Positions 12,745-36,560 of a stretch of 64,000 nt of DNA are shown here, piece after piece. Position 1 is the first letter of the stretch. Every line of letters starts with the position of its first letter. The position numbers and the translations under genes were made by a program. The DNA is from Naegleria gruberi (Eukaryota), in NCBI GenBank assembly GCA_000004985.1, contig GG738915.1, one strand, 5' to 3'. The notes under the pieces are model-generated. The model did not search any database and was not told the origin of the DNA. It saw only the letters and a program-made list of their open reading frames with translations.

Positions 12745-14665
12745 ATGAATAATAATAATAGAAGGCCAACTACATTCAATCCTTGTGTTGCCAATACAAA
12801 TATCAGACGTGCCAATGATGAAAATACTCTCCTGCAACAACAACAATACAACTCGTACAATTCAAAGTATGAACCATTCCAATCGAGAGAAATCCTCAGA
12901 GATGTTACCAATTCAGCCTCTTCGAATCAGAGAAATGTCATGATGCAACAAGGTGTCTGTTCTCAACAACAGCAACCACTCAAACCAAACACTATTGGTC
13001 AAAACAATTACTATAATTCTCAAAACAATATACCTAAAAAACCATCGAGTGCTAATCTTCCACAACAAACTCAACCATACAAGAATGTTGTGCAACAAAC
13101 AAATAGCAATACTACAACAATATATAACTATGGACAACGACCATTGAATGCTCCAAACACTTATCAATACTCCCAACAACAACAGCAACCAATTACTCTC
13201 CAACAACACCATCCCCAATATAATAATTCCTCCTCAAATAGTCGAGGATTTTTACCACAACATTCTTCCNNNNNNNNNNNNNNNNNNNNNNNNNNNNNNN
13301 NNNNNNNNNNNNNNNNNNNGAGATGAGGATGAAGAAATGGCTTACTTTGAAGATGAAGAAGAATTGACAGAAAATAACACAATTCCAATCGTGCCTTCGA
13401 TTGGTGTTGGTTATTCAGTTACTTCAGCTGCTGTTGCTTCTGGTTACATGTCCGCAACATCTGTATTTGCTAATCCAAGCAGTACCAGCTCTGTTTCTCA
13501 AAGCTCTTCCTATTTTTCACAACAACAACAACATTCTTCCAGTAATAATAATTTTGTTGCAGAAGATCCAGCCAATACATCCTATGAAAGTGATGAAGAA
13601 CCACAAAAAGAACCAACCAATTTACTTCCATCCATGCAACCATTGTACTACTTTAGAGAACATCACACCGGCTCTGGTACAATTAATGCATCAACTTGCA
13701 ATATTTTAGTGCCTCCACCAACTAATCCTGAAGATGCTCGTTGTATGAGATCTGTCATCTTTGCTACTGATGTTGAAGCTGAAGTTTTGGAAAGCATGCG
13801 CTTAACTCAAATGAAAAACAAACCAAATCCAAGATATATGGAAACTGTACAAACTGATATTACCAGTAACATGAGATGTATCCTCGTTGATTGGATGAAT
13901 GAGGTTGCTTCCATGTACACTCTTTCACCAGAAACATTATATTTGGCTGTTAATATTCTGGATAGATCCCTCTCCAAGATGTCTGTCAGAAGAAACAAGT
14001 TGCAAGCATTTGGTGTCGCTTCTCTCTTCATCTCTTCAAAGTTTAACGAGATTACTCCTCCAGAGTTAAATGAATTCATCTATATTGCAGATGACACTTA
14101 TGGAAAGGAAGAAGTTCTCATTATTGAGAGAATAATTTTGAACAACCTCGAGTTTGAACTTGTTACTGTTCAACCTTATGATTTTATTGAAAAGTTTTTG
14201 CAAATTTGTGGTGTTGTCGACAATCCTATTGTCAAATACTTGACTTATTACATTTGTGAAATGCAATTACAGAATATTGAAGTTCTTAACTTTCCACCTT
14301 CTGTTATTGCAGCTTCTGCATTGATGATTTCCTTGTATTTGATTGACTTTAATTATTGGAACTCTGAGTTGGCTTGTTGTTTTGGTTTTTCCAATCAAGC
14401 TTGTCAAGGTAACTCATCACTCACTCCAGAAGACGAACAATTGGTTGGTATTGTCAATGAATGTCTTTCCTCCATGTTTAGATTCTATGTTGGTATGGCC
14501 ACAGGCAGGATTAATTTCTCTGCCGTGAGATCCAAGTACTGTCACATGGTTTTCCAAGGAGTTGGTGAATGCACAAGAAAGGTTGATAAGGAACCACCAT
14601 TCATTCCTTCAGTCAGCAAGGGTAGCAATCCAAGTACCTCAACCACACCAAATTACCATCCTTAA
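12745..14665 (+). CDS. Mitotic (A/B-type) cyclin with an N-terminal destruction box; the model is interrupted by a 50-N assembly gap and the frame changes across it
   Basis: Two cyclin-box folds (MRCILVDWMNEV...FGVASLFISSKFNEITPPELNEFIYIADDTY...EFELVTVQPYDFIEKFL...YLTYYICEMQL). D-box REILRDVTN at 12886..12912 (RxxLxxVxN). The N/Q-rich N-terminal exon (frame 1, 12745..13269) and the post-gap part (frame 2, 13320..14665) are connected only through the N run. Confidence 0.75.
13270..13319. other. Assembly gap (50 N) inside the cyclin coding region
   Basis: Run of n characters; the reading frame of the surrounding ORFs shifts across it. Confidence 0.95.
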
Positions 14666-18804: not shown

Positions 18805-20481
18805 CTAATTGGTCCATTGTAGCAAATCTTGAATGGAAAGTTCAATTAATTGCTCTGGTTGAGAAATGAATGGTGCAATTGCTGGATAGTACTTGGTAAT
18901 GGTTCTAAAATGTTCTCTATTTCTATTATGATTTTTCAAGCTTAATTGTTCGAAACTTTGCATGGAAACTAAACATCTCTTCATGCAATTGTTGAATTCT
19001 TCAATTTCAATGACCAATGAAGATTGTCCTTGTGTTTCATGATCTTCAACATTGTTTCTCTCAATTCTGGACATTTCTTCAAAGTAAATCTTGAGGAATT
19101 TTCTGATAATCGAAACTGATTTGAAATTCGAATGTGGAGCAAGCATTTGGAAAGCCAATACGAAACAGGATAGAGCAACAAGTGAAGGTCTAAACCACAA
19201 CATGTCATAATTGTGTAATTGAATTTCACATAGATAATTAGAAACCTTTTCCATAAAGTTTACAAAATTATCAGCTTCAACCAAAGATGGAAAAGCTTGT
19301 GTGAAATTTTGATCATTCTTCATGGCATGAATGAACAAGGCAACGTAATCAATCAATAGAATGGATCTCAACTCAAAATCCAAGGTATTCAACACCCAAC
19401 TTTCCATTCTCAGCACTTGTTTCTTCAAATCTTCAATAGACGAATCAGACGAAACTGGTGGTAAAATATCACTCAAGTTGACCGATCTACCATAATACTT
19501 GGTTGATATAAAAAAGCATGCACATCCCAATGCCTGCAAATTATCAACATCTATCAAATAATACTGTTCAATATTAAATCTGTCAAGTGAACGATCAAAA
19601 ATCATTGTTGCATGATAGAGAATTTCCTTTGGAATGTCAAGTTCTGTTTGGAGAATATTAAACCAATCGATAACTGTTCTTCTATATTGTGGTTTGACAT
19701 GTGGATGAGTGGAAAGATAATTAGCTTTTGCACAGTTGATAGTTTCACGTGAAATGTTATCTGAAAGTAATTGAAAACTATCTGAAACTTCAACAGCTTC
19801 TTCTTCGTCAGCTTCTTCTTCGTCATCTTCTTGCATGGAATCAACATCTTGATTAGCACATTCTTCTTGATTACTATTCGAATCATGGTCTTGACTCAAA
19901 ATAATTTCTTCAACACTATCTTCCATAGTTTCGTATTGTTGACTTTCTTTTTCTGGATGAATGGAAAATGAGGTAGCGCTCCAACTGCAGGTAATTTCAT
20001 CTTGGGCAAGTGTCGAAATTGGTTCGGCAGTTTCGGTTTCGTTTAAGGAAGGAGATATATACGAATGACCATTGACAAGCTCTTGCTTTACTTCTCGAGA
20101 TTGAAAAGGTGTTGGTTGGATTGTGTTGAGGGCGGTGGTGGAAACGTCTTCTTCACATTCCCAAGTAATTTCTTCTTGTTTTTCATTCACTTTATGGGCG
20201 AGAGCATGTATACGAATTGAATCGAAAGTGGACGAAACTCGAGTCTTCTTTGTAATCTTGCTCTGAAGAGTTTCTACTGAATCAGATTGTGATGAATAGC
20301 TTGTTGTTAGAGAATTTGTCTTTCTCTTTAAATTATTCGAAACTTTTTGGCGCCAACCTTTCATCACGACTTTCTTACCACCAGAACACATTCTCATAAA
20401 TGTACAAGGTGAAAGTCCACCTAATTGTTGTTGATTTCTTCTCGAATTCATTGTATTTAAAATAAAATTACAATTTTCCAT
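18805..20481 (-). CDS. Cyclin-like protein (cyclin N- and C-terminal folds) with an acidic insert; third cyclin paralog in the window
   Basis: RRTVIDWFNILQTELDIPKEILYHATMIFDRSLDRF...LGCACFFISTKYYG...LDFELRSILLIDYVALFI...NYLCEIQLHNYDML match the cyclin fold. Acidic stretch DSMQEDDEEEADEEEAVEV. No clear D-box found. Confidence 0.6.
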   Translation of the reverse strand: MENCNFILNTMNSRRNQQQLGGLSPCTFMRMCSGGKKVVMKGWRQKVSNNLKRKTNSLTTSYSSQSDSVETLQSKITKKTRVSSTFDSIRIHALAHKVNEKQEEITWECEEDVSTTALNTIQPTPFQSREVKQELVNGHSYISPSLNETETAEPISTLAQDEITCSWSATSFSIHPEKESQQYETMEDSVEEIILSQDHDSNSNQEECANQDVDSMQEDDEEEADEEEAVEVSDSFQLLSDNISRETINCAKANYLSTHPHVKPQYRRTVIDWFNILQTELDIPKEILYHATMIFDRSLDRFNIEQYYLIDVDNLQALGCACFFISTKYYGRSVNLSDILPPVSSDSSIEDLKKQVLRMESWVLNTLDFELRSILLIDYVALFIHAMKNDQNFTQAFPSLVEADNFVNFMEKVSNYLCEIQLHNYDMLWFRPSLVALSCFVLAFQMLAPHSNFKSVSIIRKFLKIYFEEMSRIERNNVEDHETQGQSSLVIEIEEFNNCMKRCLVSMQSFEQLSLKNHNRNREHFRTITKYYPAIAPFISQPEQLIELSIQDLLQWTN

Positions 20482-21699
20482 GTATGGTATATAATAGTTG
20501 AATATTTAAAACAAAACTACTTGATAAAATTAACAACAAGTATGAACCTACTCAAAATTCAATATATCAATATTTGAAAAATTAATGTTCTCTCGGGATC
20601 AACAACACTGATGCCAAATGCCAGCTGTCAAAGTAGTTTTTTTTTCTTCGTCATCTTGATTACTAGCACTCTGCACTCGCCAACTTCAATATTTTGGCCC
20701 TTCGTCTAAAAGCCTATTGGTTTGTTATTGCGTTGACACTTGAAAATTTCACACTCTAGTGGGTTGTCAATAACCCTAATTCGGAAGGCAACTTTTTGGG
20801 AAGATTTGAAATTCCACATCTTAAGGCTATTGCGAATATTAACAATGGACATGGAATTAAACTCCAATACATTATTATTATTGAATGATTACAATTTGTA
20901 ACACATCCTTTGAAAACTTTCCAATAGTTTGAAAATATTGGAAAGTTTTCGAATTGACTTTTCGATGTGTTGATATCAAATAAAGAATGTACATTGAAAC
21001 AAATGAAAAAAAGAGGATGGATGGTCAATGAATGTGTAATCCTTTCTACTGAGATTGAAAACGTGCTCTTCATGGTCGATTTTCGAATAACCTTGATTGT
21101 AATGTTATCCTAAATGGCAAATGGATGAACCATCACATCAAAGATCTGAAGATTTTAAAGCAAGTTGGTGTCTTCGTCAAAATGGGTATTTTACTATTAT
21201 CTTTTTAAAGAATCAACATGTCATGTTTGAAAATGTTGTCATGTGACATTTTGGTGAAGAAAACAATTATTGTACAGTAAATTCTCAAACACCGTTCACA
21301 GTAGGAAAACCACGTCATCTTCTTTAATACTGTAAATTATTATCTTTTCACACTTTACAATAATGCTGCACCAGCCCTACAATCCTTTCGTATAATATTT
21401 GACACACAATCAACAGACCCTATCCAAATCAACTCAGAGCACAAGCCAACTTGGATTTACACTCATTTTATTAGGATCATGCACCGTACTACTTTCGAAT
21501 AGTTTTCTCCTATCAATGAACTTGTTGAGCACATGACTATTACGGATAATTTACTAGTTTCTGTAGAGCACTTATTGTAAAACAGTCATTTTACTGTAGT
21601 GTGGTAATGGTTAGAAAATGACCAAGAAAAGATAATTGGTAGAGTTGAGCACGTTTCGGTGGTGAAATTTTGCATTTTACCTTTTTGGGATGGTGTTCA

Positions 21700-21845
21700 C
21701 TTCCGAGGTGAAAATTTTTGATGTTCGTAGATTTTCAAATACAAATGTGCTCGTCTCGTGGTGTAATGGTAGCATAGTGGACTTTGAATCCATTGACGGA
21801 GGTTCGATTCCTCCCGAGACGGTAAACGTGGCGAGCCATAAGAAT
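21700..21845 (+). repeat. Left arm of an inverted segmental duplication carrying tRNA-Gln plus ~50 nt 5' and ~22 nt 3' flank
   Basis: The flanks tgatgttcgtagattttcaaatacaaatgtgctcg and ggtaaacgtggcgagccataa recur reverse-complemented at 23878..24030. Confidence 0.7.
21752..21822 (+). tRNA. tRNA-Gln (anticodon TTG)
   Basis: Cloverleaf readable by eye: acceptor CGTCTCG/CGAGACG, D-arm GGTGTAATGGTAGCA, anticodon loop CTTTGAA, T-arm GGAGGTTCGATTCCTCC, discriminator G. No encoded CCA. Confidence 0.85.
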
Positions 21846-21928
21846 TTTGCATCGATACTTTTATTTGCTGCTATCAAGGTTTTATGATTACAATTTATTA
21901 TTTGCTCGATTTCCTGTTGCTTATTTAC

Positions 21929-22786
21929 TTATAAACACAATTGATTAGAAAGATGTCTCTTCAATTCACTATTATATCCAAATTGTGTCTTTCTTCTAAT
22001 ACCATACTCTTCAATTCGTTTCTTGAAAGATTCCAATAGACTTGGTACATATTTCTTACCCAACCATTCCTTCATATTGGAACAAACACCTGCCTTAACA
22101 TGAATTCCACTCTGTTGTTGACATAGTGAACTGCCAGCAAGAGATGGATATTCCATATTGACAAAATAAGTTGCCTGAATGTTTCCATTCTTTAAATCTT
22201 TGAGTATCCATTGACCACCATGTTTCTTGAAGGAGGATTCACAATTGATGAGACAGTTGGATGAGGATGAGTTGAATTGGATGTGTTCTGGACTAATGAC
22301 TTTGACTTGGAGTGTATATTCAACGGTGGAAAACATGAATGAACTCTTAAAAGTTACTGTATAGTCTTGTTTCGTCTCCTTTCTATGGACATTGGCTACA
22401 AAGTAACCATCCAAGAATTCAGGATATCTTTCAAAATCTGTGATAATGTCCAAACAATCTTTTAATGTCACATTTTCAAAAATGATGGATTGAGAAGTGG
22501 CATTGACAAGATCACATTCAATGAAATGACGCCATTCTTCACTGAATGAAGGAGCTGTACTGCATGAAGGCACAACAGCTTGAGGTTTCTCTGTTGTTGT
22601 CACTGGAATCAATTTACTGTCAATTGTCGATTCAACAATATCAATGAGTTGAGCTTGATTGCTGGCAGTTGACTGAAACAATGCTGGTGAAGAAGTAGTT
22701 TTACAACGATGAAAATGTTGCATTGCCTTTGGAGAATCAGCTTCAAACAAGTGGGGATGATGTGAGTGATTGATCAATGAAGACAT
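21929..22786 (-). CDS. Hypothetical protein with an SRPBCC (START/Bet v1/COQ10-like) lipid-binding-type domain, tentative
   Basis: 285-aa ORF. The central region (VTLKDCLDIITDFERYPEFLDGYF...YTVTFKSSFMFSTVEYTLQVKV...HGGQWILKDLKNGNIQATYFVNMEYPS) has the beta-grip pattern of polyketide-cyclase/COQ10-type domains. Identified from memory only. Confidence 0.4.
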   Translation of the reverse strand: MSSLINHSHHPHLFEADSPKAMQHFHRCKTTSSPALFQSTASNQAQLIDIVESTIDSKLIPVTTTEKPQAVVPSCSTAPSFSEEWRHFIECDLVNATSQSIIFENVTLKDCLDIITDFERYPEFLDGYFVANVHRKETKQDYTVTFKSSFMFSTVEYTLQVKVISPEHIQFNSSSSNCLINCESSFKKHGGQWILKDLKNGNIQATYFVNMEYPSLAGSSLCQQQSGIHVKAGVCSNMKEWLGKKYVPSLLESFKKRIEEYGIRRKTQFGYNSELKRHLSNQLCL

Positions 22787-23704
22787 TTTGTTTCGTTTAG
22801 TTTCTTGTATTGACGATAATGTGGATGCTCAATTTATAGTAATTGGAAAGCTCACTGTGATGTTGTAGTGCAATCCAAATAAGAGTTTTTTAATATGAGT
22901 TGTGTGTTTACAATGTAGATGATATGAAATCCAATCTTCTACTTTTCCAAATATATTAAATTATCTAATTTTATATAAAAGTATAACTGGATTATATTTT
23001 CTCTCACTTTTATAAACAATGTAACAGTTCTCTATCTAATTGAATCTATTAATTACTCTAGTCCAATTGAACAGAAAGTTTTCGTTTTGTTGATTTTTTC
23101 TGAAAAAGTTGCACAAGATCTAGAAGCACTGCAAACAAAGCAATGAAATTGTTGTATTAACTGTTTGGAAGAAGTATGAGTGCTGTGGTGATGGCGTTGA
23201 TGATCTTTTTTGATGAAATTCCAAAAGAGGACAAGATAAAAAGTTTGGTTGGATATCAAGTTGGAGCAATTTGCAATTTTGTTCTTCAGGAAGGTGTGAG
23301 AATAAGGAACATTTATGGTTTTCAGAGAATGGTAAGGTTTGGAGAATTGTGTAAATTTGCAAGAGTTTGAAAAAACTGTAAATTGGAGAAATTGTAGTGG
23401 AGGAGTTTTTGTAAAAGAAGAGAATATCGATATTGGTAACTAGTACAACTATTAGAAGAACAATACTTAGATTGGAGAGATGACAATGAATGCGATCAAT
23501 TTCATGATCATCTCAGTTTTGGTAGGTCCTATTGATTAAATGAGACGATAGGTTTGATAATGGTAAGTAAATTAAAGTGGAATACGCACTAATGTGTTGC
23601 AAAAAATCGACATTGGTTGACAAATTGACGGTTATAATAAGCGAGGGTGAAAAGGTATCTTTGTTTGTGATGATTGTTCGTGGGTGTAAAAATTCCTGCT
23701 TACT

Positions 23705-23775
23705 TGCGTCGACCGGGAATTGAACCCGGGTCACGGCGATGGCAACGCCGTATTCTACCACTAAACCATCGACGC
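23705..23775 (-). tRNA. tRNA-Gly (anticodon GCC)
   Basis: The reverse complement reads GCGTCGATGGTTTAGTGGTAGAATACGGCGTTGCCATCGCCGTGACCCGGGTTCAATTCCCGGTCGACGCA: acceptor GCGTCGA/TCGACGC, anticodon stem CGGCG/CGCCG with loop TTGCCAT, T-loop GGTTCAATTCC. Confidence 0.85.
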
Positions 23776-23877
23776 TTCTCATGTCCTTCTATAATAATAC
23801 ATAACTGAATATAAATGGTATTTGAGCTAGGTCAAATTTAATTTCTTGAAGAAATCCACAAACAAAAAATTTAAAAA

Positions 23878-24030
23878 TTGTTATGGCTCGCCACGTTTAC
23901 CGTCTCGGGAGGAATCGAACCTCCGTCAATGGATTCAAAGTCCACTATGCTACCATTACACCACGAGACGAGCACATTAACTGTTCAAAATCTTCGAATA
24001 TCATTGATTTTCAATGATAATCTTAGAAAA
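23878..24030 (-). repeat. Right arm of the inverted tRNA-Gln duplication
   Basis: ttatggctcgccacgtttacc ... cacgagacgagcacattaactgttcaaaatcttcgaatatca is the reverse complement of the 21700..21845 region with a few substitutions. Confidence 0.7.
23900..23970 (-). tRNA. tRNA-Gln (anticodon TTG), inverted duplicate of the copy at 21752..21822
   Basis: Exact reverse complement of the + strand tRNA-Gln, including shared flanks (ggtaaacgtggcgagccataa and the upstream aatgtgctcg). Confidence 0.85.
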
Positions 24031-25594
24031 CCTCCAATGTGCAAAATTTCTTATTAACCACATTTCCAATCAAACTCAAATTATACAACCAATATCGTTT
24101 TGTCCAAATATGCCCCTTCTCTTTTTTTTTACATCTTTCTAAGAAAGCTGCCTTAATAACCTAGAACTGCTTATTTGACCTCCAAATTTGAGCCACTGTA
24201 CATCTTTTACTGTATCGTAAGATAGTTTCCTTATTCGATAAGCTTCACAGGCCGAAATCAATAGACAATAAGCGTTCTTTCTTATTAAAAACAATACAAT
24301 TACTTTTTTTCAAACTGTAGATGAAGGCATTACAACAATTTATGGAGAATTTTGAATGAATTTATTCACAGCTGTAGTAGAATCTATCAGTAGGCATGTG
24401 GTTGTATTCGCATCCAATTTGGGACTCTTGCAGTTTTCAATATTGAACAAGATCCAATTTAAATTATTAAATGGTCGTGAGTCATCATACAAAGCACTCA
24501 TCCATGCAGTGTGAACATGAATTTTCACATCTTCAATATATTTGTTTCCAATATAAATATTTAATAGGAGATAGAATGTAGAGCGAATTAAACCAGTTGA
24601 GGCAGTGAATTGCATATGATAAATATCTGAATAATGATCCAATATTGGATTGATTAAATACTTTCTGAGGTTTGTTTATTTCCTCATTCGAATAAGTGAC
24701 TTGATTCGACGATAATGATCTGAATCATCGATTCTTTACAAAATATTAAATAATCCAAAACTAATAAATGAGTATTTAATCGCTACTACACTATTTCTCG
24801 AAACATTGATAGAGTTCCTTATAGGCCTTGTTGAAATATTTAGGCTTTCATATCCACAATATTGGTAATCGAATAACCTTCTCAAAATATTGAACAAACT
24901 TCATGGACACAATAAAAGTCATAATGACCTGTCAAGAAACTGCCAACTACAACATGTCAACCCAGCTTTCAAATTATGATAATGGTCGCCTCGTGTTCGC
25001 GCCATTAATTTTAATCATTTTCTGATAACATGCTCCAATTATTACAATACGGAAATTCCTCAATCATCATCATTCAGATTCAAATGACAAGAAGCGCACC
25101 AGCCATTTTCTTCCTCTCATCCATCATGCTCTTAAATTGGATGTTATTCTCTTTCCGTTTAATCGACAAACAAAAGAGAGAAAATCGCAAGAAGCGTTTT
25201 GTTTGTGCTAAGCAACGCGTTGTTGTGTAGGTGTGCACAAAGGTGGTAAGGCAAAAAACCTTTAAATTGGACGCTTCCCATTGCACCTGAGTCAATAGTC
25301 CACACAAAAAGAAAATTCCAATTCAATCACAAGCAAAAAGTGTAAAAAGAAAGAAGCACAGTCACCCTCTCTGATTCTATTCTTTTCCACACAACAAACA
25401 CCAATATATAATTTATATAGCCGAGCGAGTAATTCACAAATTTATTGATGATTGCATAATACATATTACCATTTCAACATCAATATTGAATTTCTACATA
25501 CATTTAGTCGAGTCCTATTATCTATTAACCTTTCGGAATCTTTGATCTCCAATTACTTACCTATTATTACTATTATTACTATCTTTGAGACAAT

Positions 25595-27265
25595 ATGTTC
25601 AACAATAATTCGAGTGTTTCCACAATGATGACCACAACCACAAGTAGTACTACCTCTACTACTACTACAAGAAAGCCTCCTGTTGGTAAACCAATTCTCT
25701 CCAATACTTCCCTTGCCTATACAAATGTTGAAGAATCTATTGATACGAGGACACCACCTTCTCTTGTATGTAACTCACCTTCTTCAGTGTTTCATCATCA
25801 TGGAGGAGCAAAGAGACAACCACACAGAGAAGCCTTGGCCAATATTACCAATTCTCATGAGGTTCAACATACCTCCTCTACAAATGATTTGAATAAGAGA
25901 GTAGCACAAGCCAATAATTATTCAAATCTGAAAGTGAATACTCATTCTAGTTCTACTTTCACTACATTATCCACTGCTAGTACTAATACTCAATGTTCTA
26001 AGAGTTTTTTGAATCCATACTCCTCTGCCAATGGTAAGACAAACGCAGCAGCAGTAGCAGTATCAGTACACTCAATGATTCATTCGAATAGTGCTAGCAA
26101 TAACACTCAACAATTTAACACTTCGAGCCAACACCATACCCAACAATATACAGAGGATCAACAAACATTCGAGCAACAAGTTGAATCCTCATCATCACCA
26201 CTCAGTTCTGAACAAGATCCAAATGCCTTTAATGAGTTCTCAATGGAGGCCTCTGATGAAAACTACTCTTCTGACGAAGAGATGGATGAATCAGAAGATG
26301 ATGGTGAACAACAAGCACCACCAATCGATCCAGATATCTTCAACTCTGTCGATAAGAACAGGCTTCAAGCTATTATGGATTTGAATATCAGAAATCCAGC
26401 TAACCTCCTTCCAAAAAGTTCTTTGAGAACTTTAACACAAACTCATCTTCCAATCGATGTGGAAGATGATATTCTTTCCTATTTATTCAACAATCAAAGT
26501 TACAAGCAAGTTTCTCCTCACGTTTGGCGAACAACTCAAAAGAATGTCAATGCCAAGATGCGTACCATGCTCGTCGAATGGATTGCAGGTGTTGCTGTAA
26601 GTTTCAAACTCTTACCTGAAACACTCTACCTTTCCATTGACATTTTAGATAGATTCTTGTGTAAAGTTTGTGTTAGCAACGTTAAACTTTTACAAGGATA
26701 TGGTTTGGCTTGTCTTTTCATTGCTGCCAAGTATTGTGAAACTGCTCCACCTCCACTCAGACAATTCTTATTTGCTGCTGATAATACTTATACAAGAGGA
26801 TTGATTTTGAGTTTGGAGAGTGAGATTTGCAATGCTTTAGACTTTGAGTTGTGTTCCATTCAATCCTTTGACTTTGTTGAAAAGTTTTTGGAACTCATTG
26901 GACATGTTAACAATGCCAGAATCAAATGTTTGGCCTATTATATCTGCGAATTGCAACTCCAAAACTTTGATGCCCTACAATACAACAAGAGTGGTATTGC
27001 CCTCTCTTCAGTAATTATTGCCTTGTATGTGACTGGTACTGCCTGTACATTGGAGGGCCTCGTTGCATGCTTGGGTGGTAATACTGATCTTGCCAATATC
27101 ACTTATATCAATAATTGTGTCATGGCTGTATACTGTTATTACGTTCAAATGTCAATGGGTGAAATCCAACACAATTTCATTAAGGACAAGTATGCCAGAC
27201 AATCATTTGGTGGTGTGTCCACCATTGGCTTTACCAGTCGAATTTCTCCAAGTATCAGCTTTTAA
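25595..27265 (+). CDS. Mitotic (A/B-type) cyclin with an N-terminal destruction box; paralog of the cyclin at 12745..14665
   Basis: Cyclin boxes MRTMLVEWIAGVAVSFKLLPETLYLSIDILDRFL...YGLACLFIAAKYCETAPPPLRQFLFAADNTY...DFELCSIQSFDFVEKFL...CLAYYICELQLQNFD, colinear with the first cyclin over ~250 aa. D-box REALANITN at 25826..25852. Ser/Thr-rich N-terminus. Confidence 0.7.
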   Translation: MFNNNSSVSTMMTTTTSSTTSTTTTRKPPVGKPILSNTSLAYTNVEESIDTRTPPSLVCNSPSSVFHHHGGAKRQPHREALANITNSHEVQHTSSTNDLNKRVAQANNYSNLKVNTHSSSTFTTLSTASTNTQCSKSFLNPYSSANGKTNAAAVAVSVHSMIHSNSASNNTQQFNTSSQHHTQQYTEDQQTFEQQVESSSSPLSSEQDPNAFNEFSMEASDENYSSDEEMDESEDDGEQQAPPIDPDIFNSVDKNRLQAIMDLNIRNPANLLPKSSLRTLTQTHLPIDVEDDILSYLFNNQSYKQVSPHVWRTTQKNVNAKMRTMLVEWIAGVAVSFKLLPETLYLSIDILDRFLCKVCVSNVKLLQGYGLACLFIAAKYCETAPPPLRQFLFAADNTYTRGLILSLESEICNALDFELCSIQSFDFVEKFLELIGHVNNARIKCLAYYICELQLQNFDALQYNKSGIALSSVIIALYVTGTACTLEGLVACLGGNTDLANITYINNCVMAVYCYYVQMSMGEIQHNFIKDKYARQSFGGVSTIGFTSRISPSISF

Positions 27266-27935: not shown

Positions 27936-29885
27936 TTGCATAGTCGAGTTTTTGCTCAGTTAAAAAAAATGGGCAATTCTCGTAGTATTCTACCGCCCAC
28001 TTCCTCAAACAATTTACTTCCCAATATTAAGATTGGCAATAGCAATGCAGATTCATCCATTTCGAACTCAACAATAACCCATGATGAGGATAAGACGGAG
28101 GCTGGGTATCGACAGTCTATTTCCTCACTTCCCTTCTCATCAAAAAGGCCTTCAATACGGCCCACCCATTTGAAATCACCAAAGGGTTCAATTAGCTTTA
28201 CTCAAGGATTAACAAATAATACTCACAATAATACCAATCATCATCATAATTCAAAAAACATGCTTCCTCCCTTAGTAACAAACAAACCAAATAGCCTTTC
28301 CACTCCTCCTTCCCTTGATACTTTGTCAATAGACCAATCATCTTCCAACAACATATTGGGAATTAGACAAGTAATTAGCAATGATTCCTTTCAAACCATT
28401 TCCTCATCAACTTATTCATCCTCTCTCAGTAACAAAACACTCGAAAATAGCTCTATGAATAACACCTTACGAGTCAATGAAACATCATCGACACTTAATA
28501 CAAGAGCAACCTCTCCTATTCAGTTTGGTAGAAGAACATCTTCTACCCAGGCCTTAAACTCTCTCGCTAAATCACGAGGCAAAGGCTCTGCTGTATCACC
28601 TAAGAATATCAATACTCAACAACTTTCCTCATTGAGTAATAATAATAACACCACTAGTATCAAGAATAGAAGTAATGATTCTCCTGAAATTCCTTCATCC
28701 CCAACCAACAATAACAAAACCTCTTCCTTAACAGCTGGTGCTGCATCTTCCTGCCCTTCAAACTCACCAAACGCCAACAATAACAATATTATAGCCTCGA
28801 TTTCGAACTCTGAAAATTACGGGCCAAATTCATCTGCCCTATTCCTGGAACCTCTTCCAAATTTGAACAAATCAAATACCGATGCTTATGAATCAGAAGA
28901 TGAACCATCAACATTCATCATGCCAAATAAGCTAATTTCCACAGATAGTTTTAGTCTTATCAGTTCCCATAAACGAGTAGGAGCCAAGTTAATGTTTGAC
29001 AGAGATGCTGTGAATAATAGTAATGTAAGCAAGCTGGATGATTGTGATACAGGAAGTGAAATATCAAGGCAGGAGGATGAACAACCTCTCATTCTCACTT
29101 CGACCTTAGATGTAGATATGATGATGAACCAAAAGAAGTTGGCTTCCATTTCAACACCTCCTAGGGCTCAAACTTTGACGGCAACAATGGAATCACCAGA
29201 CATTTTCTTTGATACACCACCTCAGAGGGAGACTTCAATGAAGAATATTGCTAGTGCACCAAATTTGCTCTATGACTCTCTTTCTCGTAAAATGGATGAA
29301 AAGGAGAGATCACTGATTGATAGTCTGACCTTAGACAAATCTTCTACTATCAGTCCAAGTTCTAGTATTGATGTAAAGAAAACAAACAAAATGCGACGAA
29401 GTGTTGGTGATAGTGATGATATACTGGATGATATTTTGAGCGAAAAGCCAACATTAAAATCATTGAAAAAGTTAAAGAGTGAAAATTCGGTGAGAAGGAG
29501 AGCAACTAGTCTCAATAATTCAAAAGCAGGAAAAAAAAGCGCCGAGAAGAATTCAACCTACCTTAGAGAAAATGATGGAATTAGTACTAATATTATGGAT
29601 ATTCTGAAGGGATGCGAGGATTTGTTGGGAGATTTAGAACTTGAGCCAAAGTGTCCTTGTACTATTGAGATTACACAACCAGATGCAAATCCAGAGACGT
29701 CTCACTTGCTTCCTCTTCAAAATTCCAGACGATTCAATTTACTAACAGTTCCAGACCTCAAACAAGTGATGAGAGAAAGTAGGTCAGAACAAAAACAACA
29801 CGAAAGAAAACAAAAGAATGTGAAAAAGGAAGTAGCCAATATCATCAAAGATATCAGGTCTTCGTTTTCAGAATTTGATTTTTAA
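27936..29885 (+). CDS. Hypothetical Ser/Asn/Thr-rich low-complexity protein
   Basis: 649-aa uninterrupted ORF; no recognisable domain; many S/T/N runs. Confidence 0.4.
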   Translation: MHSRVFAQLKKMGNSRSILPPTSSNNLLPNIKIGNSNADSSISNSTITHDEDKTEAGYRQSISSLPFSSKRPSIRPTHLKSPKGSISFTQGLTNNTHNNTNHHHNSKNMLPPLVTNKPNSLSTPPSLDTLSIDQSSSNNILGIRQVISNDSFQTISSSTYSSSLSNKTLENSSMNNTLRVNETSSTLNTRATSPIQFGRRTSSTQALNSLAKSRGKGSAVSPKNINTQQLSSLSNNNNTTSIKNRSNDSPEIPSSPTNNNKTSSLTAGAASSCPSNSPNANNNNIIASISNSENYGPNSSALFLEPLPNLNKSNTDAYESEDEPSTFIMPNKLISTDSFSLISSHKRVGAKLMFDRDAVNNSNVSKLDDCDTGSEISRQEDEQPLILTSTLDVDMMMNQKKLASISTPPRAQTLTATMESPDIFFDTPPQRETSMKNIASAPNLLYDSLSRKMDEKERSLIDSLTLDKSSTISPSSSIDVKKTNKMRRSVGDSDDILDDILSEKPTLKSLKKLKSENSVRRRATSLNNSKAGKKSAEKNSTYLRENDGISTNIMDILKGCEDLLGDLELEPKCPCTIEITQPDANPETSHLLPLQNSRRFNLLTVPDLKQVMRESRSEQKQHERKQKNVKKEVANIIKDIRSSFSEFDF

Positions 29886-30041: not shown

Positions 30042-31301
30042 TTAGAAAAAGCAGAGCTCAGATTCGTCAGCAGAGAATGCATTTTGGTTGAACAAGTCAA
30101 TTTCAAAGTCATGAGGTGGATTGTTACAGTCAGTAGATTTGGAAGGAGCAAAATTGCCACAACAGTCAGAAAGTTTAAAATCTTCTTCTGACAAAAATTC
30201 TTCATTACCAAAAAGGGTATCGAATTGATCATTATTATTGGTATTATGATGGGCACAATTTGGACAGTTGTCATCTGTGAGCCAATACATGCAATCACAA
30301 GCCTCCTCCACGAATGGATCACTGAATACAGATGAGGCAGGTTCTGTTTGATTTGCAATATCTTGTGGAATGTCTAAGAGTGAAACGACAGTCTTATTGT
30401 ATGCTTCTAATTGCTCTTCAGGAGAAAGGGCCTTGAATATATGGAGGAGATTTTGCAATTCCTTTTCATAGGTTTGGAGTAAATCTTCTTGATCATTGGA
30501 AGTATTGTCGAGTTTAACTTTCTTTAAACTCATAATTGGTTGTTCACATTCTTGATTGGATGTGGACAAGAGGTGTTGTTTCATTTCCATATATTGTCGT
30601 TTTTTTCTGACTTCTTCGTCTCTTTGTTCTGTAGTCCTTCTTCCATATATCTGAAAAGCAGCACTTACCATACACAAGAGAGGAGTCTTACCTGAATATC
30701 CTTCTAGACTGTATAAACTGACTTTGAAATTAACAAATTCCTTTTGATGATGGTAGGCAACTTCACTGAATTGAAACTTGGAAGTACAACTCAATGTTCT
30801 ACTCTTACCTGTACAGATTTCAGAATCGGAAAGATCTTTTTCATCTTTACGATTCAATCTCTTCTTTGCTATTATTGGCTTTCTCTTCTTCTCTTCAAGG
30901 GATAGGTGAGTTACTCCTTTAAGGAGTTCCTTTTTCTTACCTGATTGTTCACCATTCTTAGATCCCAATAATGAGCTGCCTTGAGAATCAATAATATCAA
31001 TGTCTGCCAATAAGATTTGGCTTTCTGAAAAGGAGGAATTGCCACAAGTTTCTACGTCAATTTTGAACTTGTACTTCAAACTACTGTATAGTTTTTCAGG
31101 CACAAAGTCAATATCAGGGTCAGTTCGACTGGAAATAAGAAACGTTACCTTTGCAATGTTTAATAACATGTCATTCTTGATAGCTTGCTCATCCATATGG
31201 ATCATTTGCCACTCGCGATCCATAGACTCGTTAGCCAACATCATCGAAGAACATGTTACAGAGGAGCTTGTTGATGAACAAGAGGATAATGGGGATTCCA
31301 T
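30042..31301 (-). CDS. Hypothetical protein with a C-terminal Cys/His-rich region
   Basis: ORF open 30042..31580. Proposed start is Met 31301 (MESPLSSCSSTSSS..., A at -3), because the upstream in-frame part (31302..31580) is Phe-rich and junk-like. The C-terminus has CDCMYWLTDDNCPNCAHH, possibly a small zinc-binding module. Confidence 0.4.
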   Translation of the reverse strand: MESPLSSCSSTSSSVTCSSMMLANESMDREWQMIHMDEQAIKNDMLLNIAKVTFLISSRTDPDIDFVPEKLYSSLKYKFKIDVETCGNSSFSESQILLADIDIIDSQGSSLLGSKNGEQSGKKKELLKGVTHLSLEEKKRKPIIAKKRLNRKDEKDLSDSEICTGKSRTLSCTSKFQFSEVAYHHQKEFVNFKVSLYSLEGYSGKTPLLCMVSAAFQIYGRRTTEQRDEEVRKKRQYMEMKQHLLSTSNQECEQPIMSLKKVKLDNTSNDQEDLLQTYEKELQNLLHIFKALSPEEQLEAYNKTVVSLLDIPQDIANQTEPASSVFSDPFVEEACDCMYWLTDDNCPNCAHHNTNNNDQFDTLFGNEEFLSEEDFKLSDCCGNFAPSKSTDCNNPPHDFEIDLFNQNAFSADESELCFF

Positions 31302-31758
31302 TTTGTAAGCTTGACTGAATACGCAGATGTGGAAGTTTAACGGTTTGTATTCGTTAGGGTGCGAGAGGTTGTATCTAGGTCTCGCGTTATTTTTTTGATT
31401 TATTTTTAATCGCAAAGTGTTTTTGAATCTTGCTTTTAGCAAGCGAAAACAAGGTGAAGCAAAAAATTGGGTTTTGGTTGAATCTTTTTTTGGCGCCAAA
31501 AATAAAGTGTTACAATGAAAACATGGGAAATCTTGAGTATTGAAAAGGAAAATAGTCCTTTTTGTTGGAAAGGACAACAATATCTAATCTCAATAACTGC
31601 AAGAAACATTTTCTTATGATCTTATTTGGTCAATTTCTTTTTATTAATTGTAAAATCCATTGAAACTCTTCTTAGTTTGATTTGACGTGTTTATTGTAAA
31701 CCAAGTTCACAATCTCCATCACCAAATGACAATCTTTTAATAGACTTCATCAAAAAAA

Positions 31759-34700
31759 ATGCCAATCATTAAATTCTCCACAGGCTCTCTTCCAATCAAT
31801 TCCAATCTTCAAAGGGTGATTGAAAAGAGTCTCTCCGAAGTGAATGTTAATAATTTATTTAATTATGGAACTCCAAAAGGAGAAGAATTTATTAGACATT
31901 CCATTGCAAATTTGTACAATAATTCAAGGAGTGAAAGTGATGATCAAAAAATTGTGATGAAGAGCGATGATGTTTTCATCACTACATCGGCTCAACAGGG
32001 ATTAAATATTTCATTTGCTACCTTGTTCGGAAGTGAAGTTGAGAGTGGAAAGACAATTGTCTTGTTGCAACAACCTTGCTTTTTTGGAGTGGTGAGATTA
32101 ATTAAAAAGTATTGTTTGGGAAAGAGTTGGATTGATGTCATTACATTTGAGAATATTGATGAATTGTTGGAAAAGTTTAAAAATTTTCAAAGTGCTGCTT
32201 CTGTAAATAGAATTGTAATTTATCTTTGCTCTAATTATCAACCAAATTCGGGAAATATTTTGAGTGAAGGGGAAAAATCTGACCTTTGTAATCTTGTTTC
32301 GAAGAATATAATTGAAACGACCATCATTGAAGATAATCCATATGATTTTCTGTATGGCACCGAGAAGAGGCCTAGTACTCTTTTTGAAATACTTCCAGAG
32401 AAAACAACTTTAATTGGCGGATTTTCCAAGATTCTTGCTCCAGGAATTCGTGTTGGTTATCTGATTACAAGAAATCAATCATTCAGTGGAAGATTGTACA
32501 GAGAGAAGATTGATCAGGACTTGTTTACTTCTACACTGAGTCAGCAAGTTTGTGCCAATGCTTTGCAAGATGTATCGTACCTGTCAGAGTGGAGAGCGTT
32601 CGTTCAAAAGAGGGTTCAATGTACTGTTAAATTATTAGAAGAAATATTTGGTGAGGAAAAGAGGAGTGGAAAGATTGAATGGACTAATATTGAAAGTGGA
32701 ATTTTTGTCTATTTGAGGTTTTTCAATTCCAATCACGAAGGAGTTGCAAGTATCCAAAAATTACTTGAAATCTCCAAGAATGATTTTGAGCTAGAGTTAG
32801 AACCAAGTGGATACTGCTACTTGGATGGATGCTCGAGATTGGAGACTCGCATTAATATTATGCTTTGCGAGAGTGAAGATATTTTAAGAGAGGGCCTGGA
32901 AAGATTAAAGATTGCCTATCACAAGTGGACCATCTCTCCAAATGAAACAACCAGCATTCGTTCTATAAGCACTGAAGAAGAAAAACCTAATAAGCAAATA
33001 CTCAAGGTTGTTATCACCTCTGGAGGAACTGCTGTTCCAATCGATTCAGTCAGATATATCACTAACAGCTCTACAGGCACAACAGGAGCTTTAATTGCCG
33101 AGGAATTTGTAAAGAGGGGCCATTTAGTTTATTACATTCACAGCAAGAATGGAAAAGTTCCTTCGAAGAAATATCCAAACTTGATTTTACTTCCTTACTT
33201 TACCTTTGATGAGTATCTTGAAGTTCTAAAACAAACCACCATTGAATGTAATCCTGACGTCGTCATTTTGAGTGCAGCTGTTAGTGATTATGGTGTACAA
33301 CAAGCTCATGAGGGAAAGATTAGCTCTGATCTCGACACTCAAACCCTTACACTTGTCAAGTTGCCAAAGATTATTTCCTTGGTGAAACACTGGAATCCTA
33401 AAGTATTTCTTGTCGGATTCAAATTGCTTGCTGGAGCCACTACTGAAACACTTATTGATACAGCTTACAAATCTGGTATTAGAAATCATTGTAACCTCAC
33501 TGTTGCTAACACAACCACAAAGGATGACATGTCTAATTTCGGAAAGAGAATTATTACCATCATTACACCAGAGAAGAGCGTCATTTCCACATCAGTGAGA
33601 GATCTACCAAATGCATTGACTACTCATGTCGAAAAGAGAGTCTCCCACAAACACTACAAAACAATTGTTATTCCCTCTGATCACAAGGATTACATTAATT
33701 ATGAAAAAGTTATGGGCGAATCCATTCAGACCATGTTCTCCAACATCCAAAAAGGATATACTTTGGGATTATTTGATAGCTATTTTAAGGATGAAACAAT
33801 TTCAGATATGAATTCACATTTTGGATTTGTAGCAATGCGTGCCCCAGAACCATATAGTGGCTTCTTGATTACTTCCAGAGGAAGTGATAAAAGTCAACCA
33901 AGTATTAAGGATATTACCTACATTTCCAAAGTTGATTTCCAAGCAAGAACTTTGCATGTTCATTCAACTCATAGACAAAAGGCCTCTCTCAATGCTAATG
34001 TTGCTGGATGGTTATTTGAGAATAGACCGTTGGTTAATTTGATTTTACATGCTCACATCTTCCCAAGTTGTGATAACAAGACTGATTTTGACTATTCACC
34101 AGGTACTCAAGAGGATGTCGATGCTGTAGCTAGAAAAATGTCAAACAATGAAAAGATTGTGGAAATACCAGATCATGGTGTCATTTCAGTCTCTAACAGT
34201 TCAAGAATTGAAGAGGCTATTGATGCACTCGGAGAAGGACACGCCTATTTCAAGTTTGCTCACCTCTACGATATGATCTATGCAAGATTCCAAAAGTCTA
34301 CAGATTTAATCGATATCTTGGATAGAGAATTTGAAAATAAGGAAAAGGTCAAGGTCTTGGATTTGGCTTGTGGAACTGGTGAAGTTTCACGACTCATGTA
34401 CGAGAGAGGACTCAAGAATATTACATTCGCCGATCAGAGTGACAAAATGTTGAACTATGCCCACAAAAAATTCATTGATAATTTTGGAGAGGAGATTTCT
34501 AATGGAATTTCAAAACATGTTACTTCCATGCAAGATTTGAAAGTCAATAATGAAAAATTCGACCTGATTGTCATAAGACAGGCCATAAATTATGCAATGA
34601 ATTTGGAAGGATTGGAAATGATTGTTAAGAATTGCTATGAGCATTTAAATGATGGTGGAAAATTAATTTTCAACACTACAAACTTTAAATTGGATCAGGA

Positions 34701-35268: not shown

Positions 35269-36560
35269 ATGAGTGGAAAATCAATTTATTCGGGAGAAAT
35301 TGAGGATGGCTGTTTTCATGGCAAAGGAACCATGATCTATGCCAATCAAGAGAAATATGAAGTGAGTATATTGTTGTTCTACTCATTCATCATAACTATT
35401 ATAACTATTGATTATTAATATAATTTATCTTAATGCTTGTATTGCTTAGGGAGATTGGGTGAAAGGAAAAAAGCATGGTGTAGGAGCCTTTACCTATTCC
35501 GATGGTTCTTATTATGAAGGTAAGGAAATTTCTTCACCATCATCAATGCTTATTATTACATCAAATTATTATATTAAATAGGCGAATGGATAAATGATCA
35601 AATTAATGGAAAAGGAACATTCCTCTACGCCAATGGAAATCGATATGTTGGAGAGTGGGCCGATTCAGTAATTAGTGGACGAGGCGTTCTGTACTATTCC
35701 GATGGTGATCGATATGATGGAGAATTTAAGGAAGGAAGAATGAATGGTGAGGGAATTTATTGTTATGCTGAGGGAGATCGATATGAAGGATCGTTTGTGG
35801 ATGATCAAAGACATGGAAAGGGAATAATGAGTTATGCTGGAGAGAATGGATCAATCTTTGAACGATATGAAGGTAGAGTAGATGAATTCAATTCATGAAA
35901 CTAACCATGTTGATTTTCTAATAAGGCGATTGGGCATTTGGTAAAATGGAAGGCATTGGAAAGTACCTATATAGTGATGGAAGTATTTACGAGGGAGAGT
36001 GGAAAGATGGCAAAATGAATGGACAGGGTCTATATAAATTTCAAAATGGTAATAGATATGAAGGCGAGTTTGTTAATGATCAAAAGCATGGTAAGGGTAT
36101 TCTGAGGTATGCCAATGGAGAGGTCTATGAAGGAAGCTGGAAAACTGATAAGCCACATGGAATGGGTACACTGACCTACTCTCACGGTGACAAGTATGTT
36201 GGAGAATTTGTCAATGCCAAGAAACATGGAAAGGGATCACTGGTCTATAGAAATGGTGACATTTATGATGGAGAGTGGAAGAATGATCATGCCAATGGTT
36301 ATGGGGTTTTGGAGTATGCCAATGGATCGAGCTACGAGGGAAACTTTGTGGATGATAAGAAACATGGTCAGGCAATTGTTAGAAGTTCAGATGGAAGTAT
36401 TTTTGAGGGAACGTACGAGAATGGAAGAAAGGAAGGAGAAGGTGTTTTAACATTGCAAGATGGATCTGTATATAAGGGTGTTTGGAAAGATGGTCTAATT
36501 GTTGGTATGGGTTATTTTATACCTTCAGCTCAATCAATTTGGAGTAGTCCAGATGTGTAG
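35269..36560 (+). CDS. MORN-repeat protein, 4 exons (35269..35361, 35450..35519, 35582..35872, 35926..36560), about 363 aa with ~14 MORN repeats
   Basis: Tandem YxGxWxxGxxHGxG repeats throughout (YEGEWKDGKMNGQGLYKF, YEGEFVNDQKHGKGILRY, ...). Three introns with GTGAGT/GTAAGG/GTAGAG donors and TAG/AAG acceptors, each placed right after a ...YEG codon. Joining the exons restores a continuous MORN array (MSGKSIYSGEIEDGCFHGKGTMIYANQEKYE|GDWVKGKKHGVGAFTYSDGSYYEG|EWINDQINGKGTF...). Confidence 0.7.

What the first reader, a model, noticed from the sequence alone, without database searches (positions are those of the whole stretch)
21690..24030. Inverted segmental duplication of tRNA-Gln(TTG), with flanks, bracketing tRNA-Gly(GCC) and a protein-coding gene
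The two tRNA-Gln copies are identical. They share ~50 nt of 5' flank and ~22 nt of 3' flank in inverted orientation (…tgatgttcgtagattttcaaatacaaatgtgctcg[tRNA]ggtaaacgtggcgagccataa / its reverse complement), about 2.1 kb apart. Inverted tRNA gene pairs can act as recombination substrates, chromatin boundary elements or replication-fork barriers. The shared flanks indicate duplication of a unit larger than the tRNA, not independent genes. The arms enclose the SRPBCC-like gene and tRNA-Gly, so inversion of the enclosed segment by recombination between the arms is possible.
Basis: seen in the sequence. Interest (0 to 1): 0.55.

Follow-up and report, generated by a model that had tools for sequence, protein, structure and literature searches.

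The report
Inverted duplicate tRNA-Gln genes in Naegleria
Two identical glutamine tRNA genes in the amoeba Naegleria gruberi sit tail-to-tail 2 kb apart and share short stretches of flanking DNA, which is best read as an ordinary, old local duplication of one tRNA gene unit and not a special genetic device.

Summary
The window is Naegleria gruberi nuclear DNA. tRNA-Gln(UUG) at 21752-21822 (+) and 23900-23970 (-) are identical. They lie inside a 140-nt inverted repeat (21709-21848 / 23874-24013, 91.4% identity, blastn E 5e-54), the only long inverted repeat in the 64 kb.

- **Shared 5' flank:** 43 nt at 74% identity, with the last 8 nt identical.
- **Shared 3' flank:** 25 of 26 nt identical, ending at the T-run that would terminate RNA polymerase III.
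- **Extra upstream match:** an 11-mer about 80 nt upstream of both copies.
- **Enclosed features:** a weak SRPBCC-domain orphan gene and tRNA-Gly(GCC).

The shared unit is therefore one polymerase III transcription unit plus its proximal upstream region, about 180 nt. I read it as an old local inverted duplication. The 98-nt perfectly identical core would be kept by selection on the tRNA and probably by gene conversion.

It lacks transposon features. tRNA-Gly shares none of the flank apart from the terminator. The published N. gruberi survey reports 924 tDNAs and an excess of same-type pairs, so this is ordinary.

I could not test whether the flanks recur at other tRNA-Gln loci, because no tool reached the rest of the genome. 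Inversion, boundary and fork-barrier roles remain untested speculation. Interest is low.

The parts
21664..21674 (+). Upstream 11-mer GAAATTTTGCA, -88..-78 of the left tRNA-Gln. Probably the distal edge of the duplicated unit.
   Evidence: Occurs only twice in 64 kb, both times in line upstream of the two tRNA-Gln genes. Expected 0.24; 2 of 100 shuffles reach 2 matches.
21709..21751 (+). Left copy, shared 5' flank: proximal upstream region and leader. 43 nt, 74% identical to the right copy, last 8 nt identical.
21752..21822 (+). tRNA-Gln(UUG), left copy. Canonical cloverleaf, C1-G72, G73 discriminator, no encoded CCA.
   Evidence: Rfam RF00005 68.8 bits with alignment. ARAGORN.
21823..21848 (+). 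Left copy, shared 3' trailer TAAACGTGGCGAGCCATAAG followed by AATTTT (T-run, inferred polymerase III terminator). Similarity to the right copy stops here.
   Evidence: 25 of 26 identical. The trailer 19-mer is found only at the two copies.
21929..22786 (-). Enclosed protein gene, 285 aa. N. gruberi 'predicted protein' with a weak SRPBCC / polyketide-cyclase domain. Convergent with the left tRNA-Gln; its stop codon lies 81 nt from the arm.
   Evidence: 100% identical to the N. gruberi protein P0001, with no other homolog at E<=0.001. PF03364 25.4 bits. No PDB sequence match.
23705..23775 (-). tRNA-Gly(GCC), 124 nt downstream of the right tRNA-Gln on the same strand. It has no counterpart next to the left copy.
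   Evidence: No extra homology beyond the 140-nt block.
23874..23899 (-). Right copy, shared 3' trailer plus T-run (TAAACGTGGCGAGCCATAAC AATTTTT).
23900..23970 (-). tRNA-Gln(UUG), right copy, identical to the left copy.
23971..24013 (-). Right copy, shared 5' flank (43 nt, 74% identical to the left copy).
24040..24050 (-). Upstream 11-mer GAAATTTTGCA, -80..-70 of the right tRNA-Gln.

Best explanation
This is an old, local inverted duplication of one complete RNA polymerase III tRNA-Gln(UUG) transcription unit in the Naegleria gruberi nuclear genome. The unit is about 180 nt. It runs from roughly 80-90 nt upstream of the tRNA to the T-run terminator 26 nt downstream.

Both copies look like working genes. 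The tRNA body is held identical by purifying selection. The 8-nt leader and 19-nt trailer next to it are probably held identical by intrachromosomal gene conversion seeded in the identical tRNA, or by constraint on pre-tRNA processing. The more distal upstream flank has drifted to about 70% identity.

The pair is a by-product of the duplication and deletion turnover typical of eukaryotic tRNA genes. It is not a device. Shown here: the anatomy, the identity and its statistics, and the organism. Inferred: that the duplication was local, that gene conversion acts on the core, and that both copies are transcribed.
For: **Organism.** Window ORFs are 100% identical to N. gruberi proteins on a 260,018-bp contig.

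**Anatomy.** There are two identical canonical tRNA-Gln(UUG) genes. A single 140-nt homology block has E 5e-54, and nothing else is significant between the two sides. It is the only long inverted repeat in 64 kb. The block ends at the T-run on the 3' side and fades gradually on the 5' side. This matches a gene unit and not a mobile element.

**Graded identity.** There are 0 differences in 98 nt, then 11 in the next 35. Comparing the whole flanks (11 differences in the 43-nt 5' flank, 1 in the 26-nt 3' flank), Fisher's test gives p = 0.02. By my own arithmetic, at the distal flank's 31% divergence, 33 or more identical positions out of the 34 immediate flank positions has a probability of about 5e-5.

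**Proximity.** N. gruberi has 924 tDNAs in 41 Mb, about one per 44 kb. It has 12 same-type pairs within 1 kb against about 2 expected (8 parallel, 4 '+-', 0 '-+'). The authors attribute such pairs to local DNA duplication (PMC2888827 and its Additional file 2). For 20-50 Gln(UUG) copies, a number I assumed, I estimate 0.02-0.13 pairs within 2.2 kb by chance.

**Specificity.** tRNA-Gly, 124 nt away, shares none of the flank except the terminator.
Against: With only two copies and no access to the rest of the genome, I cannot show that the flank is private to this pair.

The perfectly identical block (-8 to +19, then the T-run) matches the expected extent of a polymerase III primary transcript. 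A family-wide conserved leader and trailer, or an RNA-mediated copying step, would predict the same thing.

Patchy upstream conservation (the 11-mer at about -80, then nothing, then -43..-1) looks more like footprints of selected elements than uniform neutral decay.

No orthologous locus in another Naegleria could be obtained to date the event. L037 covers only the right-hand neighbours.
Confidence: 0.7

Rival explanations
1. The flank is family-wide. The leader, trailer and upstream motifs belong to a tRNA-Gln(UUG) cassette present at many loci in N. gruberi. Either they are selected (upstream polymerase III promoter elements, a leader-trailer helix for processing, or a trailer-derived small RNA), or the family expanded by copying a master gene with its flanks. 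The two copies here would then not be direct duplicates of each other.
For: N. gruberi carries an unusually large tDNA complement, 924. The perfectly conserved stretch runs from -8 to the T-run, the expected extent of a primary transcript. The trailer is 47% G+C against 35% for the window. In the minimum-free-energy fold, the trailer GGCGAGCCAU pairs with the leader plus 5' acceptor strand AUGUGCUCGUC. Upstream conservation is patchy.
Against: The fold is not better than shuffled sequence (z -1.5 and -1.7). Two same-anticodon genes 2 kb apart are very unlikely without a local event. Similarity extends to -43 and probably about -80, beyond any transcript. tRNA-Gly shares no flank motif. No Naegleria-like tRNA-Gln or trailer was found in the metagenome, viral or prokaryote collections, so there is no positive evidence of conservation.
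Confidence: 0.2
2. The pair is a functional inverted pair. The convergent tRNA-Gln genes would act together in one of three ways: as a homologous-recombination switch inverting the 2-kb segment, as a TFIIIC-bound chromatin boundary pair insulating the enclosed gene, or as polar replication-fork barriers that let forks enter but not leave.
For: There is 98 nt of perfect inverted identity 2 kb apart. Canonical internal promoter B box GGTTCGATTCC is present in both copies. In the published counts, same-type '+-' pairs occur 4 times against 0 for '-+', with 0.5 expected for each. Boundary and fork-pausing roles of tRNA genes in yeasts are established knowledge, recalled from memory and not tested here.
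Against: None of these activities can be tested with sequence alone. Every tRNA gene has a B box. No recombinase domain turned up in the neighbouring ORFs that were scanned against Pfam. An inversion would leave all the called genes and tRNA genes intact and would change nothing obvious. No orthologous conservation of the arrangement could be shown. The enclosed gene is an orphan with no sign of special regulation.
Confidence: 0.06
3. The pair is a mobile element (foldback, terminal-inverted-repeat transposon or MITE-like) or an assembly artefact.
For: Inverted arms flank a 2-kb segment that carries one gene. An assembly gap exists elsewhere in the window at 13270-13319.
Against: The outer edges of the arms fade gradually while the inner edges are sharp, the opposite of terminal inverted repeats. 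No target-site duplication is present next to 21709 / 24013 (read). The enclosed ORF is SRPBCC-like and not a transposase. There are no further copies in 64 kb. The arms are 91% and not 100% identical, with unrelated sequence on both sides, which a collapse or mis-join would not produce.
Confidence: 0.03

Closest known systems
Homogeneous tDNA pairs or clusters produced by local DNA duplication in eukaryotic genomes (Bermudez-Santana et al. 2010, BMC Genomics 11:270, PMC2888827)
   Same: [quoted passage not shown] That survey counted 12 same-type pairs within 1 kb against about 2 expected, including 4 in '+-' orientation.
   Different: This pair is 2.1 kb apart, with a protein gene and tRNA-Gly between the copies. 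It falls outside the 1-kb adjacency rule of that survey. Here the flank homology was measured base by base, which the survey did not do.
Concerted evolution and gene conversion among dispersed or inverted tRNA gene copies (established knowledge from yeast and animal tRNA families; recalled, not tested here)
   Same: An identical core coexists with diverged distal flanks, and identity decays with distance from the core.
   Different: With only two copies, conversion cannot be told apart from selection on the leader and trailer. No conversion tract end points or polymorphism data are available.
tRNA genes as chromatin boundaries or inverted-repeat barrier elements (S. cerevisiae HMR tDNA; S. pombe centromeric tDNA and IRC elements) and as polar replication-fork pause sites (recalled from memory)
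   Same: There are polymerase III genes with intact B boxes arranged as an inverted pair around a segment.
   Different: No heterochromatin domain, TFIIIC occupancy or fork data exist here. The enclosed segment is an ordinary gene plus a tRNA. Nothing distinguishes this pair from any two tRNA genes.
tRNA-derived SINEs or retroposed tRNA copies
   Same: The perfectly identical stretch matches the expected primary transcript, from the leader to the T-run.
   Different: Similarity continues upstream of any plausible transcription start. There is no A-rich tail and no target-site duplication. The copies are full canonical tRNAs.

Membership tests
Local duplicated tRNA gene pair (homogeneous tDNA pair) | Two genes with the same anticodon and (near-)identical sequence | tested here: met
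   71 of 71 nt identical, both 68.8 bits to RF00005, anticodon UUG.
Local duplicated tRNA gene pair (homogeneous tDNA pair) | Homology extends beyond the mature tRNA into the flanks, above chance | tested here: met
   5' flank 32 of 43, 3' flank 25 of 26. The 140-nt block has E 5e-54. Shuffle and random-pair controls agree.
Local duplicated tRNA gene pair (homogeneous tDNA pair) | The flank homology is private to the pair and not shared by other family members elsewhere in the genome | not testable with these tools
   The N. gruberi genome outside the window could not be reached. Collection scans were empty or held no Naegleria-like tRNA-Gln. The only in-window control is tRNA-Gly, which does not share the flanks.
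Local duplicated tRNA gene pair (homogeneous tDNA pair) | The copies are closer together than random placement would give | tested here: inconclusive
   Published density is 924 tDNAs in 41 Mb. My estimate is 0.02-0.13 chance pairs within 2.2 kb for an assumed 20-50 Gln(UUG) copies. The true copy number is unknown.
Terminal-inverted-repeat transposon, foldback element or MITE | Sharp outer termini with target-site duplications | tested here: not met
   The outer (5'-flank) edges decay gradually and the inner edges are sharp at the T-run. No direct repeat abuts 21709 / 24013.
Terminal-inverted-repeat transposon, foldback element or MITE | A transposase gene, or multiple dispersed copies | tested here: not met
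   The enclosed ORF is SRPBCC-like. There are no other copies of either flank in 64 kb. A genome-wide count is not possible.
Retroposed tRNA or tRNA-derived SINE | Homology limited to the transcript, with an A-rich tail and target-site duplications | tested here: not met
   Homology continues to -43 and probably about -80. There is no A-tail and no duplication.
tDNA chromatin boundary or barrier pair | TFIIIC-binding B box | tested here: met
   GGTTCGATTCC is in the T-arm of both copies. This is trivially true of almost any tRNA gene.
tDNA chromatin boundary or barrier pair | Separates distinct chromatin domains; barrier activity depends on the tDNA | not testable with these tools
   This needs chromatin or genetic data for N. 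gruberi.
Site-specific invertible DNA switch | A dedicated recombinase gene nearby and a promoter or gene whose output changes with orientation | tested here: not met
   The neighbouring ORFs scanned against Pfam are three cyclins, an enolase-superfamily protein, a glycosyltransferase-like protein, a multi-domain enzyme and two ORFs with no family match. None is a recombinase. Inversion would leave all the called genes and tRNA genes intact.

The most novel reading that the evidence does not exclude
The 19-nt, relatively G+C-rich 3' trailer and the 8-nt leader could be selected parts of the tRNA-Gln(UUG) precursor in Naegleria. They might form a leader-trailer helix that controls processing, or yield a trailer-derived small RNA antisense to the 3' end of the convergent SRPBCC gene. 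Alternatively, the convergent pair could work as a unit, as a fork trap, boundary or inversion substrate. The evidence does not exclude any of these, because no other tRNA-Gln locus or related species could be examined.
Probability: 0.07. Interest if true: 0.45.

Novelty: new member of a known kind. Interest (0 to 1): 0.12.

Why it matters
It matters little. It is a clean example of how eukaryotic tRNA gene families turn over. A whole polymerase III unit is copied locally in inverted orientation. The tRNA and its nearest flanks stay identical while the more distal flank decays. The sharp end of homology at the T-run and the graded 5' identity could serve as a small teaching case for gene conversion versus selection. 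If a genome-wide check showed the leader and trailer to be family-wide, it would point to unrecognised pre-tRNA or upstream promoter elements in Heterolobosea, where polymerase III promoters appear to be little studied: my literature searches turned up nothing on them.

Tried and rejected
**1. A larger ancient palindrome (cyclin + tRNA-Gln on each side).** The two flanking cyclins (18805-20481 on the minus strand, 25595-27265 on the plus strand) are only 27% identical. The right one is closer (37%) to a third cyclin at 13148-14665. blastn finds no further homology between the two sides. Rejected.

**2. Reaching other N. gruberi tRNA-Gln loci.**
- The look-up of encoding contigs has no record for three exact N. 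gruberi proteins.
- Exact scans with the 55-nt tRNA body found nothing in viral or metagenome contigs.
- A degenerate tRNA-Gln pattern returned 36 metagenome loci. All were bacterial or unrelated eukaryotic tRNA-Gln, and none had the CGTCTCG acceptor stem or the trailer.
- T-arm plus acceptor and trailer scans of the viral and prokaryote collections were empty.

**3. Synteny in relatives.**
- The right-hand cyclin search found one metagenome ortholog, P0003. Its contig L037 is syntenic for window 25.6-31 kb. It has only 1.2 kb upstream of the cyclin and no tRNA.
- The left cyclin and the SRPBCC gene have no homolog other than themselves.

**4. Translated tRNA search.** I searched the antisense ORF that spans the tRNA and trailer against 1.84 billion representative proteins, hoping to catch spurious ORFs over related loci. 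It returned only repetitive proteins and generic antisense-tRNA ORFs, none with the trailer-encoded WLATFTV.

**5. Pre-tRNA fold.** A leader-trailer pairing exists in the minimum-free-energy structure, but the z-score is only -1.5 to -1.7. This is not evidence.

**6. Other RNA families in 21650-24100.** Rfam gave only sub-threshold chance hits.

**7. Bacterial-type promoter and terminator scan.** Uninformative for a eukaryote.

**8. Literature.** Nothing specific was found on Naegleria polymerase III promoters or tRNA flanks.
Full report
**Source of the window.** The window is nuclear DNA of the amoeboflagellate Naegleria gruberi. Three window ORFs are 100% identical to N. gruberi proteins recorded on one 260,018-bp contig: the 285-aa 'predicted protein', 'cyclin A' D2VZL5 and a Cyclin_N protein. 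G+C is about 35% throughout. The long ORFs I scanned encode eukaryotic-type proteins such as cyclins.

**The observation.** ARAGORN and Rfam find three tRNA genes and nothing else of that kind in 64 kb:
- tRNA-Gln(UUG) at 21752-21822 on the plus strand
- tRNA-Gly(GCC) at 23705-23775 on the minus strand
- tRNA-Gln(UUG) at 23900-23970 on the minus strand

The two Gln genes are identical over 71 nt. They fold into a canonical cloverleaf with C1-G72 and a G73 discriminator, and no CCA is encoded. They are convergent (tail to tail).

The repeat finder and blastn both report one inverted homology block, 21709-21848 / 23874-24013. It is 140 nt long with 91.4% identity, E 5e-54, and 2025 nt between the arms. 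It is the only long inverted repeat in the whole window.

**Anatomy of the shared block.**
- On the 5' side, 43 nt are shared at 74% (32 of 43). The 8 nt next to the tRNA (AATGTGCT) are identical.
- On the 3' side, 25 of 26 nt are identical: TAAACGTGGCGAGCCATAA, one G/C difference, then AATTTT.
- After that, similarity drops to background.
- The longest perfect run is 98 nt, 21744-21841.
- An 11-mer, GAAATTTTGCA, occurs only twice in the window. Both copies lie in line with the two genes, at -88..-78 and -80..-70. It is probably the distal remnant of the copied unit.

These matches are far above chance. The trailer and the 5'-flank pattern each occur only at the two copies, against 0.02-0.03 expected. 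Random 43-mers of the window average 11.7 matches, and 4 of 200,000 pairs reached 32.

The shared unit therefore runs from about 80-90 nt upstream to the first T-run downstream. That is one RNA polymerase III transcription unit with its proximal upstream region. The reading of the T-run as terminator is an inference from general knowledge of polymerase III.

**What lies between and around.**
- The arms enclose ORF 21929-22786 on the minus strand. It is an N. gruberi orphan with a weak SRPBCC / polyketide-cyclase domain (PF03364, 25.4 bits against a cut-off of 23.4). It has no homolog other than itself in the 5.8-billion protein collection and no PDB sequence match.
- About 920 nt of non-coding DNA follow, then tRNA-Gly, which sits 124 nt downstream of the right tRNA-Gln on the same strand.
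- tRNA-Gly has no counterpart beside the left copy.
- The flanking genes are cyclins on both sides. They are not each other's closest paralogs (27% identity, against 37% between the right cyclin and a third cyclin at 13148-14665). A larger ancient palindrome is therefore not supported.

**Is the flank similarity just generic tRNA signals?** Within the window the only control is tRNA-Gly. Its 5' flank matches the Gln flanks at 16-18 of 43 positions and its 3' flank at 6 of 26. The only common element is the terminator GAATTTT. The Gln flanks are therefore not a general tRNA promoter or terminator signature.

The sharper question is whether they are common to all tRNA-Gln(UUG) loci of the genome. 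I could not answer it. N. gruberi contigs are not retrievable by exact protein look-up. Scans of the viral, metagenome and prokaryote collections with the tRNA body, its 3' end or the trailer gave nothing Naegleria-like. A search with the translated antisense strand found only generic antisense-tRNA ORFs.

One metagenome contig (L037, 40.6% G+C) is syntenic with the three genes to the right of the pair. It stops 1.2 kb upstream of the cyclin and carries no tRNA.

**Interpretation.** Two same-anticodon genes 2.1 kb apart in a genome with one tDNA per roughly 44 kb are very unlikely to be neighbours by chance. I estimate 0.02-0.13 such pairs for an assumed 20-50 copies. The published survey of eukaryotic tDNAs counts 924 tDNAs in N. 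gruberi. It found 12 same-type pairs within 1 kb against about 2 expected, and it attributes such pairs to local DNA duplication (PMC2888827 and its Additional file 2). A local inverted duplication of one gene unit is therefore the simplest account.

The duplication is not recent. The -9..-43 segment has diverged by 31%, and the stretch between about -44 and -78 is no longer alignable.

Against that background, 98 nt of perfect identity is too much for uniform decay, given that 27 of those nt lie outside the tRNA. At 31% divergence, 33 or more identical positions out of the 34 immediate flank positions has a probability of about 5e-5 by my arithmetic. Fisher's test on the two whole flanks (11 differences in the 43-nt 5' flank, 1 in the 26-nt 3' flank) gives p = 0.02. 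There are two explanations:
- Gene conversion between the inverted copies, seeded in the identical tRNA and running into the nearest flank.
- Selection on the leader and trailer of the precursor.

The minimum-free-energy fold does pair the trailer (GGCGAGCCAU) with the leader and 5' acceptor strand (AUGUGCUCGUC). It is not better than shuffled controls (z -1.5 to -1.7). With two identical copies there is no covariation to test. I favour conversion as the more economical reading but cannot exclude selection.

**What it is not.**
- It is not a transposon or foldback element. The outer edges of the arms fade while the inner edges are sharp. There is no target-site duplication, no transposase and no further copy in the window.
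- It is not a retroposed copy, because homology extends upstream of any transcript and there is no A-rich tail.
- It is not an assembly artefact, because the arms differ at 12 positions and are embedded in unrelated sequence.
- A site-specific switch is not supported. No recombinase was found among the neighbours scanned against Pfam, and inversion would change none of the called genes or tRNA genes.

Homologous recombination across 98 identical inverted bases could flip the 2-kb segment at low frequency. That is physically plausible and untested, and it would disrupt none of the called genes or tRNA genes. Boundary and fork-barrier roles are known for tRNA genes in yeasts (recalled from memory). 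Nothing in the sequence singles out this pair. The B box is present, as in any tRNA gene.

The published counts show 4 '+-' against 0 '-+' same-type pairs in N. gruberi. That is a small asymmetry worth a look if someone runs the genome-wide analysis.

**Verdict.** The functional speculation is unsupported, and the key genome-wide control is still open. This is an ordinary member of a known kind, a locally duplicated tRNA gene pair, and interest is low.

Noticed in passing
window 13148-14665 (+), 18805-20481 (-), 25595-27265 (+): Three cyclin genes (Cyclin_N + Cyclin_C) lie within 14 kb. The first and third are the closest pair (37% identity), and the middle one is divergent (26-27%). This looks like an old local cyclin gene cluster around the tRNA pair.
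   Followed up: partly
window 31759-35115 (+): A 1118-aa ORF fuses an aminotransferase class I/II domain (residues 3-327), a DFP / phosphopantothenoylcysteine-synthetase-like domain (415-591) and a SAM-dependent methyltransferase domain (848-981). This is an unusual multi-domain enzyme fusion.
   Followed up: no
window 13270-13319: A run of 50 N (an assembly gap) lies inside the first cyclin ORF.
   Followed up: no
window 35782-36374: Coding repeats with a 138-nt period resemble MORN-type repeats (YEGEFVNDKKHGKG-like), in four diverged copies.
   Followed up: no
L037 1-5512 (JGI metagenome 3300002220, contig MLSBCLC_10240919): A 40.6% G+C metagenome contig is syntenic with window 25.6-31 kb: cyclin at 45% aa identity, a C-terminal match to ORF 27936-29885, and an ortholog of ORF 30042-31580 at 43%. 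It is an uncultured relative of N. gruberi. There is no tRNA within 1.2 kb upstream of its cyclin.
   Followed up: partly
window 21752-21822 and 23900-23970: The tRNA-Gln(UUG) has C1-G72 and a G73 discriminator. The eukaryote-looking tRNA-Gln genes (no encoded CCA, followed by a T-run) pulled from metagenomes start with G1-C72 and have A73 or U73. ARAGORN offers an alternative register with U(-1) pairing G73. I did not pursue possible relevance for RNase P or GlnRS recognition.
   Followed up: no
window 21929-22786 (-): The enclosed SRPBCC-like gene has no detectable homolog outside N. gruberi in the 5.8-billion protein collection. Its stop codon lies only 81 nt from the end of the convergent tRNA-Gln trailer, so its 3' UTR may overlap the tRNA unit in antisense.
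   Followed up: partly
window 23166-23366 (+): A 66-codon ATG ORF (MSAVVMALMIFFDEIPKEDK...) lies in the 920-nt spacer between the SRPBCC gene and tRNA-Gly. It is unclear whether it is a gene or a chance ORF.
   Followed up: no
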